A stretch of DNA of 64,000 bases from Eledone cirrhosa. Taxonomy: Eukaryota. The DNA lies in NCBI GenBank assembly GCA_964016885.1, contig OZ024751.1:39866001-39930000 (forward strand), written 5' to 3'. Numbering within the stretch: the first letter of the stretch is position 1; the number at the start of each line of letters is the position of its first letter. Below are positions 676-57,088 of this stretch, piece after piece. A program made the position numbers and the translations under genes. The notes under the pieces were generated by a model. It did no database searches, had not been told where the DNA came from, and saw nothing but the letters and a program-made list of their open reading frames with translations.

Positions 676-2663
676 TATAAATATATATATATATTCCAAA
701 TCTTGCTGTTTATTTATATTTTTATTTTTTACAATGTTCCACTTGGAGATGGAAATATAGTATTTCTTTGTTCTAAATATTCAAATTATCCAAAATTACA
801 GACATTTTTCTTTTTTATGTTTTGTTTACAGAACAATTTTCACGTGAATCTATCTGCACAAAAAATAACAGTTAATATAATATTAATATGTTTAATACAG
901 TTGATGTTTTAAAAGTTTCATCTTTTTATATCGACTATTACATCTGACAGAACAATAGATGTGTGTAACACTTATAATTATAGGAGTTTCGTGGTATTCT
1001 TTCATCATTGTTTCGCAGACTTCATTAAGCAAGAAGCTACGACTAAGAATCCCGAACGAATCTTCTTAGTTCTCCTTGTGTTTTAAGACCAGGTGAGAGC
1101 GTAGGATTCAATGGTTGCAATATTCATATGCAAAGTTGAAACCCCAGATATTATTTTTGAAAAAATATATTTCTTACTGACATTGGCACAAACTAAGTAG
1201 TAGTTTGTGGCAAGAGGAAAATCGATTATATCGGCCCCAGTTATTGACTGATATTTTATTTTATCGACCTCGAAAGGATGAAATATAAAATTATCCTCGG
1301 TGGAATTTGAACTCAAGATGTAAAAAACTAACCCAAGTAAAGCTAAAAGTTTGTCCGACATTCTAACGCCTCTACCAATCCACCGCCTTATATTGATTAA
1401 AAGAAACGTATTAGAAATAATTGCGAGATGAGAGAAAGAAAGTATTAGACCAAATTAATTAAAATTGTTTTAATTATTCTAACAAGGGAAGTTGTTTAGT
1501 TAATATCTAATTTTTTTAAATCCTGACATATTTTCTGTAACAAAATACAAATTTCGCTGTATATCATATGTAACCCCCGAAACTTATAAATTATTTAAAG
1601 GTTTCGTGAAATATATACTAAAATCACATCTGTGTGACTGATCTTAAAGATAGCCAAGAAAATGTGTTAATGGGTTATATGACGTCACCAGTGCTGCACT
1701 AAATACGTGATCAGGACACTCACCTCCTCAGGGACATGTTCTAATAGGTTTAAAGATTCTTGGAGTTGTTGGTATTGTTGTTGTTGTTGTTGAGTTCGCA
1801 AGTCAACCCGATGAAACAGTCGCAAATATTATCCACCCGCGACTATGTTTCCAGACATAGTGAATCTAGAACTCTTCTAACCAATACGTCTTCCCCTATT
1901 TTTTTTCCAGACATAGTGAATCTAGAACTCTTCTAACCAATACGTCTTCCCCTATTTTTTAAAACACGATGGATTGTAAATTGAGGTTGAATTTGGAGAT
2001 ATTTACTAATATAACTAACTTTCTCATTATTAAGCTGGAGGTCGGATCAAAATTTAACGAAGGTTATTATATAGAATTATGATGGAAGGGTTTTAGATAA
2101 ATATAAACAGTTTTTTTTATTGAAGAACCAGGGGCGATTTCAGGCAGTTTGGGATCAGAAGGATTAAATGTGGTAAACGGTGCCTTAGATAACGTATATA
2201 TGGCCTTGAATGAAAGAAGGATTAATCCCACTCGGAAAATATTTGATCAAATACCACCACCACCACCACCACCACCACCAGTAGAAGCAGTAGCAGTAAT
2301 AAGAGTAACACTCCACCACATGAAGATGGTAGATTTACTTGTGACCTAACAACGCAATAAATCACGGGTGGTTGATTTTCATTACAAGCAGAAATTTCTA
2401 TAATTAAGAACTGTTCTCCTCCTGAAATAATTTATATCGATGTGACTGGTTTCTTGGCAAAGTTTAACAAATGAAGGCATGTTACGCCATCTTATATGTT
2501 CGTTCCAAAGGAATAGAGTTTCCAATTCGTGGACATTTTACAAGGACATAAATATGTAGAACATGATCATTAACTGGTTTAATTTCTTCCAGCCAAACAC
2601 GCAACTTTCATACAATTTATTTCTACTGGTAAATTAACTACTATTTATATGCTTGACTTTCAG

Positions 2664-3008
2664 GTCGATAATGAATCATTAACGAAAAGTCAATTCAACC
2701 AGTATTTCAACGGTAGTGAAACAATAGTAGCTGGAAAGTTGTCAGATAATCACGTTAAACCATCTTCGTGGAATCTAATTGCTACTACAGGTTCTGGAAT
2801 GATAAACCGCTCCGAGAAATTTAGAACGGTCCGTTTGAACAAGGTTAAAAAGGATTTCGGTTTCCTGAACGATAAAGAAGTGAAGAGTATACCAGAAAAA
2901 CTATGGGCGTACCTAAATATTAAACAAAATTTAGATGAACACACGCTAACTGTTGACGAAGACAAGAAGAAAGAATTAGAAAAACGTATATTGGAACTCT
3001 CCCTAAAG
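2664..3008 (+). CDS. ITIH-like gene, internal exon following the vWA domain (VDNESLTKSQFNQYFNGSETIVAGKL...PEKLWAYLNIKQ...ILELSLK)
   Basis: tttcag acceptor, aag|gtaagt donor, 345 nt, phase 0-0; motifs F.GSE.IVAGKL and E.LWAYL.I.Q are characteristic of ITIH heavy chains. Upstream exons were not found in the window. Confidence 0.93.
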
Positions 3009-3590
3009 GTAAGTTTAATTAAACATCTTCGCAGATAACTTAATTATTTTAATTAGTGAAACCTAACCAGGGGTCTATTTTGAGTGAGAAAGAAGGGTTC
3101 ATACCAGAAATACGTTAATACGTTTAAATATGACCGAAACGTTTTCAAAAAAGTTGTGTAATTAAGAAGGATCAAGTGATTTAGTTCAGATATATTGCTT
3201 TCATCTAATTAGATGAGGTTGGTACAATTCTATTATGAAAGATGAATAGATGCAAGTAGGGTGGAAGGAAAGTTACCGTTGTATGATTGGGTAGTCAAAC
3301 GATGAGGATAATACAATTAGCGCTATAAGGTGTATGGAAATATATAGTTGAATTTGAGAAGGTGTCAGGCAATTTTCTAAATTAGAAATAAGATGAGTTC
3401 ATTATTTGTTTTTGTTTGTTGTTCTTTTCAATTTGGGTGTGTATGGTACACATGGACTATCGAGAAATTAGAGGACCATGAAGACAAGAAGTGAATTCAG
3501 CTCAAATGTGTATTTTCGTAGGATAAGGTTAATTTTATGATAGAAATACGTGAGATCATATATATATATATATAGATATATGTGTGTTTA

Positions 3591-7301: not shown

Positions 7302-7351
7302 TCTATATATATTATTTATATATATATATATTTATATATATATATATATAT

Positions 7352-7601
7352 CCTATAGAAGTGGTTACACAACAGTTAGTTCACCATACCGAGAACAATT
7401 GTTTCACCTTAGCGGATCCTCAGCTCGTAATGGACATGATTATTCCGTATAACCATGTCATTACGAGCTGAGGATCCGCTCAGGTGAAACGATTGTTCTC
7501 GGTATGGTGAACTAACTGTTGTGTAACCACTTCTACCTAACTCGTCCCATGGACTGAGTGCTCTGCCACTACGGATATTACCCTCCAATGTTCTACCACT
7601 A
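7352..7601 (+). mobile_element. Fold-back hammerhead element: ~90-bp inverted arms (7356-7535) plus ~65-bp unique tail, in (TA)n
   Basis: tagaagtggttacacaac...gttgtgtaaccacttcta palindrome read directly. Confidence 0.8.
7464..7501 (+). ncRNA. Minimal type I hammerhead ribozyme (mirror copy on the minus strand at 7390-7427)
   Basis: cgag CTGAGGA tccgctcaggt GAAA CGATTG TT|ctcg; the mirror copy has the perfect palindrome CAATTG; stem II is short. Confidence 0.75.
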
Positions 7602-15280: not shown

Positions 15281-15431
15281 TAACGAAGGAAGTGTGGTTA
15301 GGAACCAAGTGGACCATAACGCACCAGAGTATTCAATACTTTGGGTAGTAGAGTGGGTAATAGGGAAAGAGTCAAAACCCCTACGGCAGAGCTGAAGCGG
15401 TTTCGACAGCTATTTCTGGACTATCCAGAAA
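15281..15431 (-). mobile_element. Family A copy, inverted arm nearly absent
   Basis: Tail and one arm match. Confidence 0.8.
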
Positions 15432-18775: not shown

Positions 18776-19300
18776 GATATTAATAAATGGAAACTATATT
18801 TATAAAACCATATTTATTTCATTATACATATTTCAGGGATACCACATTAAATTATGGTATGCCTTCATCAGACAAAATACAATATATAACAGTTTTACAA
18901 ATAGCTTTGACGTACCCTTTTAAAATGCAACCATTACTTTTGGAGGCTGTCTGGATAGTGATTTGTTTATATTATTTTAATAAGGGGCGGTGGAGTGGCA
19001 GTATCGGTAGAGGGTCGGACGCCATGCTTTCCAGCATAGTTACGTCCCTTTACGATCTGAGTTCAAATCCCGCCGAGGTTGACTTTGCCTTTCATCCTTA
19101 CGGGGTCGATAAAATAAAGTACCAGTAATGCACTGGGTAATTGCTGGCCTTGTGCCTAAAGTAGAAACAATTATTTTAATAAATCATAGTGTTAAGCACA
19201 ATTAGAAAAAGAAGGAGAGAAAGAAAAACTTGTCGAGTGCTTTATATCAGTTATAAAAATATTTACATGTTGTATCCCAACAACTTTAAATAGAACTTTT

Positions 19301-24820: not shown

Positions 24821-25391
<571 letters not shown>

Positions 25392-35786: not shown

Positions 35787-36292
35787 TGTACATACTTACA
35801 TATACACCCACGTGTATTTATAGGCGGTTCGCCGGTTAAAGCACTCAATGCTGTGTTGTTTACATTTCTGCAGCCTTGACTTCGTTTCTGCTTGCTTGTA
35901 TGTGTGTGTGTGTGTGTAGGTGTATGTGTGTGTGTGTCTGTGTGTGTAGGTGTGTGTGTCTGTGTCTGTGTATGTGTGTGTAGTTATGTGTGTCTGTGTA
36001 TGTCTGTGTAGGTGTGTGTATCTGTGTGTCTGTGTATGTGTATGTCTGTGTATGTGTGTATAGGTATGTGTGTGTTTGTGTCTGAATATGTCTGTGTAGG
36101 TGTGTGTATCTGTGTGTCTGTGTATGTGCCTGTGTCTGTGTAGGTGTGTGTAGTTATGTGTGTCTGTGTATGTGTATGTCTGTGTAAGTGTGTGTGTGTC
36201 ATTTGATTTTATCAATAAAATCTGGAATATATCATTTGAAATAAATATATTTTCCTGTATTCTAACTTTCCATTTTCACTTTGTTTTTGTAG

Positions 36293-36652
36293 GAATTAAC
36301 ATCACAGCCAAAATAGTTGAGGGCAAGGGTCGTTATAAACCAAACAGACCTCTCCGGACATACATTGGTGAAATCTACATTGCCTCCCGTCACATGACAG
36401 TGTCCGTCACACCCCATAAAATATCGTTTAATCACCATGATTTCACGTGGGATAATGAAACGGGAATCTCGTCCGCCAGCTCAACATTGGGGATAAACGG
36501 TAGAGGCAAATATATGGAGTTTGGAATTTCTAAAGGTCAAAAATTGCTCTTAAAAAGAAATCTGGTGTCTAAGATGGCACCAAAAGATGGGTATTTGGAT
36601 TTCTTTGTTATTTCTGGCAAAGGATTTTCAAAGAAAGCATCAGGCATTATAG
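36293..36652 (+). CDS. ITIH-like C-terminal domain exon (GINITAKIVEGK...TYIGEIYI...YLDFFVISGKGFSKKASGII)
   Basis: ttttgtag acceptor, g|gtaggt donor, 360 nt, phase 1-1; TY.G and YL.F......FS....G.IG match the ITI heavy-chain C-terminal pattern. Confidence 0.9.
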
Positions 36653-36714
36653 GTAGGTTCTCTTCTCTCTATTTTCTTTTTTGTTGGGGGTAGGAGATTA
36701 TTAGAAAGAGAAGC

Positions 36715-40739: not shown

Positions 40740-41013
40740 TGTCATCTACCGGGATCATTTCAGATATATATATATATACACTCTTGATATCTAAAACTCA
40801 GTCATTTTTCTAACGTTTCAAACCATTTTAATTATCGTCTGATAGATTTATAGTGTTTTCATTGTATTTCTTTGTTATATATATCATACATAACCAGTCT
40901 TTATTTCTTTTCATTTCCTGATTACTTTTCTCCTGCTTTTTTTGTGTTTAATGATATTTTATTTCTGATTCTTGCTCATGTATTTTTATATCATTCTTCA
41001 ATTTATCTTTCAG

Positions 41014-41246
41014 GTCGTTGTCTGAGTATGAAAGGGAAACTCTTGCAAACGAAACGAAATACACTTGGTAGAACTAAAGCTATTTTAACTCTAACGCTAC
41101 CAGATCAGAACTTAACGAAAGTGGTGAATGCTACGTTGAAATATCGTCAAGGCTGGATGTATACTACAGTTCCATGCTGGATGGTGGATACACAGCAACT
41201 AAGCTTTAAACTAAATAACCTGTTTGAAACTATCTCTCTCTCATAG
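41014..41246 (+). CDS. ITIH-like terminal coding exon (GRCLSMKGK...VPCWMVD...ETISLS*)
   Basis: tttcag acceptor in phase 1, stop TAG at 41244-41246; V.CW.V motif near the ITIH C-terminus. Confidence 0.85.
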
Positions 41247-51486: not shown

Positions 51487-51931
51487 GCAGAGGTTATATT
51501 TAATTTGTTGGGATTCAACAAGCTTAAACATTTTTATAACTGATATAAAGCACTCAACAGATTAGTGGAATAAATATACAATATATTAATAAATGGAAAC
51601 TATATTTATAAAACCATAATTATTTTATTATATATATTTCAAGGGCAACCAAGGTAGATTATGGTGCGCTTTCATCAGATAAAATACAGATTTGTTTTAT
51701 AAATATTATTTATATTATTTATAAAACAAATCTGTATTTTATCTGATGAAAGCGCACCATAATCTACCTTGGTTGCCCTTGAAATATATATAATAAAATA
51801 ATTATGGTTTTATAAATATAGTTTCCATTTATTAATATATTGTATATTTACTCCACTATTTTGTTGAGTGCTTTATATCAGTTATAAAAATGTTTAAGCT
51901 TGTTGAATTCCAACAAATTAAATATAACCTC

Positions 51932-56179: not shown

Positions 56180-56181
<2 letters not shown>

Positions 56182-56294
56182 ACAAAGGAATTGTGGTAAG
56201 GAACCAGATGGACCATAACGCACCAGAGTACTCAATAGTCTAGAAATAGCCGTCGAAACGGCTTGAGCTCTGCCGTCGGGGTCATACTTTTTCC
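56180..56294 (-). mobile_element. Family A copy with internal deletion
   Basis: Tail fused to outer arm; similar deleted copies at ~25386-25468 and ~28581-28662. Confidence 0.8.
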
Positions 56295-56338
<44 letters not shown>

Positions 56339-56470
56339 TATATGTGTGAATATAGACATAGAATATTCGAAAATATTCTGTATGTTTATAATAAACATTT
56401 TGAAGACCTAATCGCTATAGAATAGAATACGTCACGTATTACAATTAGATTCTCGATAAAAGCAAGGGAA

Positions 56471-56513
56471 GTAATCTACGCGTTTCATTCTTGTTAGAAA
56501 TCTTCAGGACTAC
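56471..56513 (-). ncRNA. Minimal type I hammerhead ribozyme, copy 1 of the 310-bp partial tandem
   Basis: Minus strand: gtagtc CTGAAGA t-ttct-aaca-agaa-t GAAA CGCG TA|gattac; stems I and II pair, stem III is palindromic, GUA triplet. Confidence 0.88.
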
Positions 56514-56780
56514 ATATCCAGTGCTTTTATCGAGAATGACACAGCTAGAGACTTATAGAATACTTAGCTGTGTACAGGAACTGGTTTGAAAGAGCGGTTG
56601 CCGGTCCGGCAGAAATTAGAAATTGGAATAAATGCTCTGAAATAGCGATATATATGTGAATATAGACATAGAATATTCGAAAATATTCTGTATGTTTATA
56701 ATAAACATTTTGAAGACCTAATCGCTATAGAATAGAATACGTCACGTATTACAATTAGATTCTCGATAAAAGCAAGGGAA

Positions 56781-56823
56781 GTAATCTACGCGTTTCATTC
56801 TTGTTAGAAATCTTCAGGACTAC
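56781..56823 (-). ncRNA. Minimal type I hammerhead ribozyme, copy 2 (310 bp from copy 1)
   Basis: Identical to 56471-56513. Confidence 0.88.
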
Positions 56824-56867
56824 ATATCCAGTGCTTTTATCGAGAATGACACAGCTAGAGACTTATA

Positions 56868-56925
<58 letters not shown>

Positions 56926-56930
56926 ATATA

Positions 56931-57013
<83 letters not shown>

Positions 57014-57057
57014 CGTTTCTGAATTTATTGGCAACATGACCCTCCCAAAGTATAACA

Positions 57058-57088
<31 letters not shown>

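What the first reader, a model, noticed from the sequence alone, without database searches (positions are those of the whole stretch)
56343..56872. 310-bp partial tandem with two identical intact hammerheads: retrozyme/circRNA candidate
Seen: two minus-strand ribozymes at 56471-56513 and 56781-56823, exactly 310 bp apart in essentially identical direct repeats. Each is enclosed by an additional ~16-bp stem (attctcgataaaagca / tgcttttatcgagaat) that extends stem I past an internal loop. Established: metazoan non-LTR retrozymes are tandem units of a few hundred nt whose type I hammerheads release monomers that circularise. Inference: a transcript could form the dimeric ribozyme through the CGCG palindromes and release a 310-nt RNA; ~1.7 units is what reverse transcription around a circular template would leave. 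Repeat identity suggests a recent insertion.
Basis: partly seen in the sequence, partly recalled or inferred. Interest (0 to 1): 0.88.

Follow-up and report, generated by a model that had tools for sequence, protein, structure and literature searches.

The report
Penelope-spread hammerhead retrozyme, circular template
This is one copy of a very young 310-base ribozyme-carrying repeat, present about 15,000 times in an animal genome, whose insertions carry the end-signature of Penelope retrotransposons and were likely copied lap after lap from single circular RNAs, which makes a long-proposed but unshown spreading route directly testable.

Summary
In detail: 1.70 units of a 310-bp repeat (56345-56872), two identical type I hammerheads on the minus strand, inside a (TA)n tract. 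It is not a local duplication. The genome has 15,034 exact copies of the cleavage-site 20-mer and over 1,000 separate insertions.

Most sampled insertions are two tandem arrays joined head-to-head. Their outer ends lie at two fixed internal sites 33 nt apart (A, and B = A plus a tail). All 79 complete inversions pair one A with one B. ORF-bearing Penelope-like elements (PLEs) in this genome show the same layout.

Each insertion carries one sequence haplotype in all units (45 of 50 without a mosaic site) and in both arms (30 of 31), yet 50 insertions hold 25 haplotypes. Truncations avoid the ribozyme site. New fixed variants are enriched for A>G on the RNA strand, in stems.

Best reading: a non-autonomous retrozyme, primed by a PLE enzyme from both target strands on one circular monomer. 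Not shown: any RNA, cleavage, circle, or the partner PLE.

The parts
56345..56872 (-). Whole insertion, 528 nt = 1.70 units; single-arm (non-inverted) copy, RNA sense is the minus strand
56345..56654 (-). Full 310-bp unit; its low end is a fixed 'A' end (tail-less 3' end, inferred reverse-transcription start)
   Evidence: 100 A ends all at unit position 1-7
56655..56872 (-). 5'-truncated second unit, ends at unit position 218 with a short overlap into the TA tract
56471..56513 (-). Type I hammerhead, copy 1; predicted cut between 56477 and 56476; 1-bp stem III with palindromic loop
56781..56823 (-). Type I hammerhead, copy 2; predicted cut between 56787 and 56786
56449..56537 (-). 16-bp outer stem (56449-56464 with 56522-56537) enclosing hammerhead 1; repeated at +310
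   Evidence: z = -6.1
56477..56786 (-). Predicted 310-nt monomer released by two cuts, predicted to circularise
   Evidence: folds only; no RNA data
56622..56654 (-). 33-nt 'tail' between start site B (56622, unit position 278) and start site A; ends in a short TA run that could pair with the target
   Evidence: 71 of 89 B ends at position 278, the rest at 270-284
56360..56379 (-). 8-bp hairpin next to start site A, kept with changes in a sister family; candidate protein-binding element (inferred); repeated at +310
56297..56344 (.). (TA)n target tract, left flank
56873..57010 (.). (TA)n target tract, right flank

Best explanation
This is a 5'-truncated, single-arm copy of a very young non-coding hammerhead repeat family whose insertions sit in (TA)n tracts with two fixed 3' ends, and which is likely spread by a Penelope-like retrotransposon enzyme copying around a circular 310-nt RNA. 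Steps: (1) an array is transcribed and cut by paired hammerheads into monomers that a host ligase closes (inferred from other retrozymes); (2) a PLE protein would bind the region around sites A and B and cut a (TA)n tract on both strands (target, fixed ends and some 10-16-nt duplications shown; enzyme inferred); (3) one target end would prime at A and the other at B, 33 nt further 3', on the same RNA (A+B pairing and shared haplotype shown; same molecule inferred); (4) each reverse transcriptase would run several laps (multi-unit arms shown; circle inferred); (5) the two cDNAs join head-to-head, often at short overlaps (shown). Where only one end extends, a plain partial tandem like the window copy results.
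For: Family size: 15,034 exact 20-mers; 1,051 exact B junctions and 534 of one A-junction variant. Layout: of 111 clusters in 108 loci, 86 are plus-then-minus, 1 is doubly inverted, 24 are single-strand, none is tail-to-tail. Ends: 79 of 79 complete inversions are A+B (29 chosen by identity alone, 42 by a B end, 8 by an A end); from coordinates alone on C1, 27 of 27 facing pairs are A+B. ORF-bearing PLE insertions here show the same A/B inversion in TA (4 of 4 with both ends visible: L170, L178, L206, L207), and intact RT+GIY-YIG frames of 904-938 aa exist. A purified PLE extends both target strands and starts at two internal sites that bound the tail (PMC11167929). Monomer bottleneck: 50 insertions with at least 3 full units hold 25 haplotypes, 19 seen once; 45 of 50 have no mosaic site; arms agree in 30 of 31 (shuffle mean 3.6, maximum 10 in 20,000). 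Only 2 of 187 truncations lie near the cut site, about 7 expected. Single-unit variants are not shared between loci beyond chance (6 pairs, 6.1 expected) nor between same-rank units of the two arms (1 shared, 60 not). New fixed variants: 10 of 22 events are A>G on the RNA strand against 6 of 110 single-unit variants (hand tally; p = 9e-6, by distinct site p = 0.005), all 5 sites in predicted stems.
Against: No RNA, cleavage or circle was observed. No ORF-bearing PLE sharing sequence with the unit was found in 50 GIY-YIG loci, 30 loci of a young PLE family or 1.5 Mb of fetched DNA. In vitro the anole PLE did not need its ribozyme, used uncut RNA, and no RNA-seq reads ended at the site; only 1 of 9 frog retrozyme dimers cleaved. 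The double hammerhead is not the predicted minimum-energy fold. 5 of 50 insertions have mosaic sites, and long arrays repeat variants at irregular spacing (L105, L106, L125), so DNA-level turnover occurs. L115 switches haplotype within an arm; L121 shares a variant at the same rank in both arms, as a dimer or linear template would give. An older sister family has at least one A+A and one B+B case (L298, L270). Shared haplotype could reflect two monomers from one transcript. The A>G excess could reflect tolerance of G-U pairs rather than editing.
Confidence: 0.72

Rival explanations
1. Same PLE mobilisation, but the template is an uncut linear multimer read from long, internally uniform source arrays; the hammerhead is slow or dispensable.
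For: Explains fixed internal starts, no truncation peak at the cut site and exact unit junctions; matches the anole PLE in vitro; double hammerhead not the predicted minimum fold; L121.
Against: Needs at least 25 (Chao1 about 80) separate uniform sources, each as long as its daughters, and gives no route by which a new variant becomes fixed in every unit. Source mosaics are not passed on: 6 shared pairs vs 6.1 expected, 1 shared vs 60 unshared same-rank variants. Editing of a multimer would be patchy across units, not all-or-none.
Confidence: 0.13
2. Arrays are made at the DNA level: a one-unit insertion expands by slippage or unequal exchange, or a 310-bp DNA circle is amplified and reinserted.
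For: Would homogenise an array; irregularly repeated variants in L044, L047, L105, L106, L125 show some DNA-level duplication.
Against: Does not explain strand-specific fixed ends, the A+B rule, never tail-to-tail, the same layout in ORF-bearing PLEs, or the strand-biased A>G excess. The DNA-level mosaics seen are partial, never fixed.
Confidence: 0.05
3. Linear cut monomer with repeated exact template jumps from its 5' end to its own 3' end (a pseudo-circle).
For: Also gives one haplotype per arm.
Against: Predicts run-off at the cut site and ragged junctions; 2 of 187 truncations lie there, and none of 765 units spanning the site has a unit-specific indel at the cut itself.
Confidence: 0.05
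4. The inverted arm comes from fold-back self-priming (one cDNA copied back on itself, or an antisense template as proposed in PMC3846280), not from priming at both target ends.
For: Would give shared haplotypes; a few junctions are near-palindromic (L038, L047, L065).
Against: Neither arm limits the other: A arm longer in 33 of 76, by more than a unit in 23; most junctions join unrelated unit positions.
Confidence: 0.04
5. Local tandem duplication or assembly artefact.
For: None beyond the perfect identity.
Against: Over 1,000 dispersed insertions with locus-specific haplotypes and unit-specific variants.
Confidence: 0.01

Closest known systems
Metazoan non-LTR retrozymes (coral, mussel, axolotl; Cervera and de la Pena 2020, PMC7229834)
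   Same: Non-coding, low-GC tandem unit of 150-450 bp with one type I hammerhead; stem III like axolotl HHR_Amex1 (one pair, palindromic tetraloop, works as dimer); co-exists with PLEs.
   Different: Head-to-head double arrays, two fixed 3' ends with a tail, (TA)n targeting and one haplotype per insertion are not described there ('inverted' occurs 0 times in its main text). There the circles were shown; here they are not.
Vertebrate non-LTR retrozymes as PLE derivatives (Li, Clavereau, Pollet 2026 preprint, 10.64898/2026.07.22.740005)
   Same: Non-autonomous, PLE-associated tandem hammerhead repeats of about 300 bp.
   Different: Their link rests on co-occurrence and pLTR similarity, and they discuss local amplification; here the link is the insertion signature, no pLTR homologue was found, and arrays appear to arrive multi-unit.
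EN+ Penelope-like elements: Penelope/Poseidon, Neptune, Naiad (PMC8557442, PMC3846280, PMC11167929)
   Same: Partial tandem, inverted 5'-truncated copy, 30-40-bp tail often at one end only, two internal start sites, microsatellite targets, about 10-bp duplications.
   Different: No RT or GIY-YIG frame; the whole element is 310 nt, so arms run to many units (up to about 45). Naiads lack canonical hammerheads.
Twin-primed LINE-1 5' inversions (recalled, no call)
   Same: Two target ends primed on one RNA, joined at short overlaps.
   Different: There the second site is variable and the template linear; here both sites are fixed 33 nt apart and both arms are multi-unit.

Membership tests
Non-LTR retrozyme | Tandem unit of about 150-450 bp, low GC, no LTR/PBS/PPT | tested here: met
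   310-bp unit in arrays of 1 to about 45; no LTR layout seen; PBS/PPT not searched separately
Non-LTR retrozyme | Type I hammerhead motif in every unit | tested here: met
   Core and stems read from sequence; core kept in a sister family with changed stem II pairs; Rfam models did not reach threshold
Non-LTR retrozyme | No protein coding | tested here: met
   No stop-free frame of 110 aa or more within the element; no PLE protein hit continuous with the unit
Non-LTR retrozyme | Dispersed, mobile copies with target duplications longer than 4 bp | tested here: met
   Over 1,000 insertions; 10-16-nt direct repeats in 6 loci with interrupted TA targets (L034, L048, L055, L067, L076, L116) among 39 flagged of 74; many of the 39 were mis-parsed or uninformative
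Non-LTR retrozyme | Self-cleavage of the transcript | not testable with these tools
   Folding only
Non-LTR retrozyme | Monomeric circular RNA in vivo | tested here: inconclusive
   No RNA holder listed; genomic signs only
PLE-mobilised element | Optional 30-40-bp tail defining two 3' ends | tested here: met
   A ends at unit position 1-7, B ends at 270-284
PLE-mobilised element | Partial tandem and inverted 5'-truncated copy | tested here: met
   87 of 111 clusters inverted head-to-head
PLE-mobilised element | Autonomous PLE with a homologous terminal repeat in the same genome | tested here: inconclusive
   Intact PLEs present; none of those sampled is homologous; only 150 of 10,595 GIY-YIG candidates were scored and 50 fetched
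Autonomous PLE | RT plus GIY-YIG open frame | tested here: not met
Plant-type LTR retrozyme | LTRs with type III hammerhead, 4-bp duplication | tested here: not met
   Type I motif, tandem units, longer duplications

The most novel reading that the evidence does not exclude
Each insertion is a fossil record of one circular RNA molecule: a PLE dimer primes both ends of a cut (TA)n target at two fixed, non-interchangeable sites on the same 310-nt circle, two reverse transcriptases chase each other round it, and A-to-I edits on that one molecule are written into every unit. This would be direct genomic proof of rolling-circle retrotransposition of a ribozyme circle in an animal, and a general explanation of the Penelope tail and inversion.
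Probability: 0.45. Interest if true: 0.88.

Novelty: new variant of a known kind. Interest (0 to 1): 0.72.

Why it matters
That animal retrozymes move through circular RNA and borrow PLE enzymes has been proposed since 2014-2020 on co-occurrence and sequence likeness; how PLEs make their tail and inverted copies is also open. A near-identical family with over 1,000 fresh insertions gives countable answers: a strict one-A-one-B rule, one haplotype per insertion, and a possible RNA-editing mark. It supplies a 310-nt, protein-free substrate for a PLE reverse transcriptase, and shows about 4.7 Mb of recent genome growth (15,034 x 310 bp) from a ribozyme RNA.

Tried and rejected
Rfam: no family at gathering score. 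Sequencing runs: no RNA holder listed; no evidence either way. Runs X2, X3 and X6 each hold the unit as one 340-nt contig (310 + 30, a closed cycle). I first took this as a hint of a circle and then rejected it: the same runs hold traces of a host PLE at a similar depth ratio to X1, so trace genomic tandem DNA explains it.

Multimeric-circle reading of repeated variants (L044, L045, L047): rejected as a general rule, spacing is irregular. First haplotype count had a trimming error and counted one insertion twice; redone (its arm-concordance test was not affected by the trimming). Rows dropped before haplotype counts: L046 and L050 (degraded or gapped), L113 (duplicated locus), L111 (cut short); L125 and L146 merged. 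The A+B count still includes L050 and one copy of L113.

Partner PLE search: GIY-YIG scan, 20 long-frame loci (44), young Poseidon-like family (60), two sister-family searches, profile searches: only non-coding sister retrozymes were homologous. Selection on the ribozyme core among fixed variants: none of 24 fixed variants hits the core, about 1 expected, so uninformative (my estimate). A named-structure pair count was not completed; the consensus fold was used, and it is weak (covariation term +0.82, 11 of 92 pairs with a double change, imperfect alignment, 6 sequences). Earlier scan notes: nothing returned.

Literature searches that found no report of inverted retrozyme arrays, an A+B count, per-insertion haplotypes or editing marks: (open-access library only; supplements of the cited papers not read and may bear on this).

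Full report
Observation. The window holds 528 nt (56345-56872) of a 310-bp repeat, identical over 218 nt, between two (TA)n tracts. The minus strand has two identical type I hammerhead motifs, 56471-56513 and 56781-56823, each closed by a 16-bp stem (-31.9 kcal/mol, z = -6.1). Stem III is one pair with a CGCG loop, the form described for axolotl HHR_Amex1, which cleaves poorly alone and well as a dimer (PMC7229834, part 3 of 6 read). Rfam found nothing at threshold. The genome (G000) is 3.0 Gb in 1,796 contigs; the organism is not established.

Family. A DNA search gave 206 matches from 39 of 185 candidates, mostly 99-100% identical tandem units. Exact patterns give 15,034 copies of the cut-site 20-mer, 5,569 of a longer haplotype-restricted 27-mer, 1,051 of one junction type and 534 of another; reversed controls were 0. 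I analysed 108 loci: 38 chosen by identity to the window unit, 50 by a B junction in order along C1, and 20 by an A junction with no exact B partner listed (one of them, L146, proved to be the far end of L125). The last set is therefore enriched for single arms.

Architecture. Of 111 clusters, 86 are a plus array followed by a minus array, 1 is doubly inverted, 24 are single-strand and none is tail-to-tail. In RNA terms both 3' ends face outward into (TA)n and the 5'-truncated ends meet. Outer ends fall in two classes: A at unit position 1-7 (100 ends) and B at 270-284 (89 ends, 71 at 278), so B is A plus about 33 nt. All 79 complete inversions have one A and one B; the 29 chosen without regard to ends give p = 4e-9 on their own, and 27 of 27 facing pairs from coordinate lists agree. 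Inner junctions overlap by 1 or more bases in 53 of 83, are flush in 9 and gapped in 21. Six loci with interrupted TA targets show 10-16-nt direct repeats; most targets are uninformative. The window copy is an A-end single arm.

Link to PLEs. A tail often at one end only, an inverted truncated copy and microsatellite targets are described PLE features (PMC8557442, passages; PMC3846280, passages). A purified anole PLE cut and extended both target strands and started at two internal RNA sites that bound the tail; it saw no difference in start site between strands and did not need the ribozyme (PMC11167929, parts 1-2 of 4). This genome has many GIY-YIG loci (10,595 candidates, 150 scored) and intact RT plus GIY-YIG frames (L189, 938 aa; L244, 904 aa), including a young family with many frames of about 900 aa. 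One ORF-bearing family shows the same A/B inversion in TA with a 35-40-nt tail ending in a TA run (4 of 4 loci with both ends visible). None of the PLEs sampled shares sequence with the unit. Two older non-coding sister families of about 315 bp share the tail region at 75-78% and the layout; in the second I saw one A+A and one B+B case, so the rule is not absolute in older copies. PLE mobilisation is thus strongly inferred (about 0.9); the partner is unknown.

Template. In position-ordered loci, 50 insertions with at least 3 full units (495 units) carry 25 haplotypes, 19 seen once (Chao1 about 82); 45 have no site that is mosaic across units. Where both arms have at least 2 full units, 30 of 31 share the haplotype, against a shuffle mean of 3.6. 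Unit-specific variants exist (0.12 per unit), so the assembly is not flattening arrays. For a new variant to occupy every unit of both arms it must pass through a single unit at or near insertion. A linear cut monomer would stop at the cut site, 132 or 165 nt from the starts, yet 2 of 187 truncations lie within about 5 nt of it (about 7 expected) and arms average 4.1 units. A linear multimer would pass on its source's mosaics, but variants are shared between loci no more than by chance (6 vs 6.1) and between same-rank units of two arms once against 60 unshared; this test is weak if most such variants arose after insertion. Fold-back is unlikely as either arm can be the longer (A longer in 33 of 76). 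A closed monomer fits all of this (about 0.78). Exceptions: L115 changes haplotype mid-arm, L121 fits a dimer, and long arrays (L105, L106, L125) show later DNA-level duplication.

Possible editing mark. Relative to the nearest repeatedly seen haplotype, 10 of 22 newly fixed substitutions are A>G on the RNA strand (position 113 four times, 167 three times, 181, 184, 225; hand tally), against 6 of 110 unit-specific ones (p = 9e-6; by distinct site 5 of 16, p = 0.005). All five sites are A-U pairs in stems of the predicted circle, where 21 of 93 adenosines lie. This fits A-to-I editing of the template, and all-or-none marking fits one monomer. Tolerance of G-U pairs and recombination between haplotypes are not excluded. 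I put editing at about even odds.

Ribozyme. In the window transcript each hammerhead is predicted to be locked in its local stem I (pairing probability about 0.99 for five of six pairs); the double hammerhead costs 5.7 kcal/mol but beats two single ones by 7.7. Slow, dimer-dependent cutting and a stable, inert monomer circle would follow (inference; the principle is stated in PMC4209133, passages). In frogs only 1 of 9 dimers cleaved in vitro (preprint 10.64898/2026.07.22.740005, parts 1-3 of 5).

RNA evidence. None: no RNA holder was listed, and the closed 340-nt contigs in three runs are explained by trace genomic DNA.

What is known. Circle-templated, PLE-driven spread was proposed for retrozymes (PMC7229834, parts 2-4 and passages) and for PLEs; the 2026 preprint adds co-occurrence and pLTR similarity. 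Eight searches of the open library found no account of inverted retrozyme arrays, a counted A+B rule or per-insertion haplotypes; subscription papers and supplements were not seen.

Verdict. A real, very young non-LTR retrozyme with a Penelope insertion signature. The class is known; the insertion anatomy is new as far as I could search and bears directly on two open mechanisms. Interest 0.72; new variant of a known kind.

Noticed in passing
window 56181-56296 and 57011-57059: Two other short TA-flanked insertions in the same tract; both look like tiny inverted PLE-type insertions of other families (the second resembles sequence in L191; the first recurs at 15300, 24700 and 59700 and beside L060, L087).
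   Followed up: partly
window 7350-7530 and 51590-51830: Inverted pairs of hammerhead-like motifs from two other families; single related motifs at 18825-18871 and 25167-25223.
   Followed up: no
L153:2600-2690 and L056:1840-1900: A 7-10-nt piece of start site A (L153) or B (L056) is repeated three or four times at the junction, like repeated re-priming or telomerase-style repeat addition.
   Followed up: partly
L125 with L146 (G000:C1:97461504-97476481): One insertion of about 15 kb; its B arm has about 45 units with variants recurring at irregular spacing, an incipient satellite.
   Followed up: partly
L115: B arm lacks the position-167 variant in its first four units and has it thereafter; the whole A arm has it. 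Could record editing or a template switch during copying, or later conversion.
   Followed up: partly
L209-L238 and L269-L298: Two older sister retrozyme families (about 315 bp; 1,933 and 2,794 search candidates) with different hammerhead stems but a shared tail region and the same inverted layout.
   Followed up: partly
L239-L268: Young Penelope/Poseidon-like PLE family with many frames of about 900 aa, a minimal hammerhead in its terminal repeat, a tail of about 44 nt and TA targets.
   Followed up: partly
L189, L191, L192, L195: Several Neptune-like PLE families (cysteine motif before a C-terminal GIY-YIG; clade name from recalled features), two with frames of 938 and 1,096 aa.
   Followed up: partly
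window 36154-36693, probably also 2583-3038 and 40854-41246: Exons of an inter-alpha-trypsin-inhibitor heavy-chain-like gene (PF06668 at 36154; the other two had no Pfam hit). The element lies about 15 kb beyond the last candidate exon.
   Followed up: partly
L113: The same insertion occurs twice, 2.75 kb apart, with different single-base indels: local duplication or assembly error.
   Followed up: no
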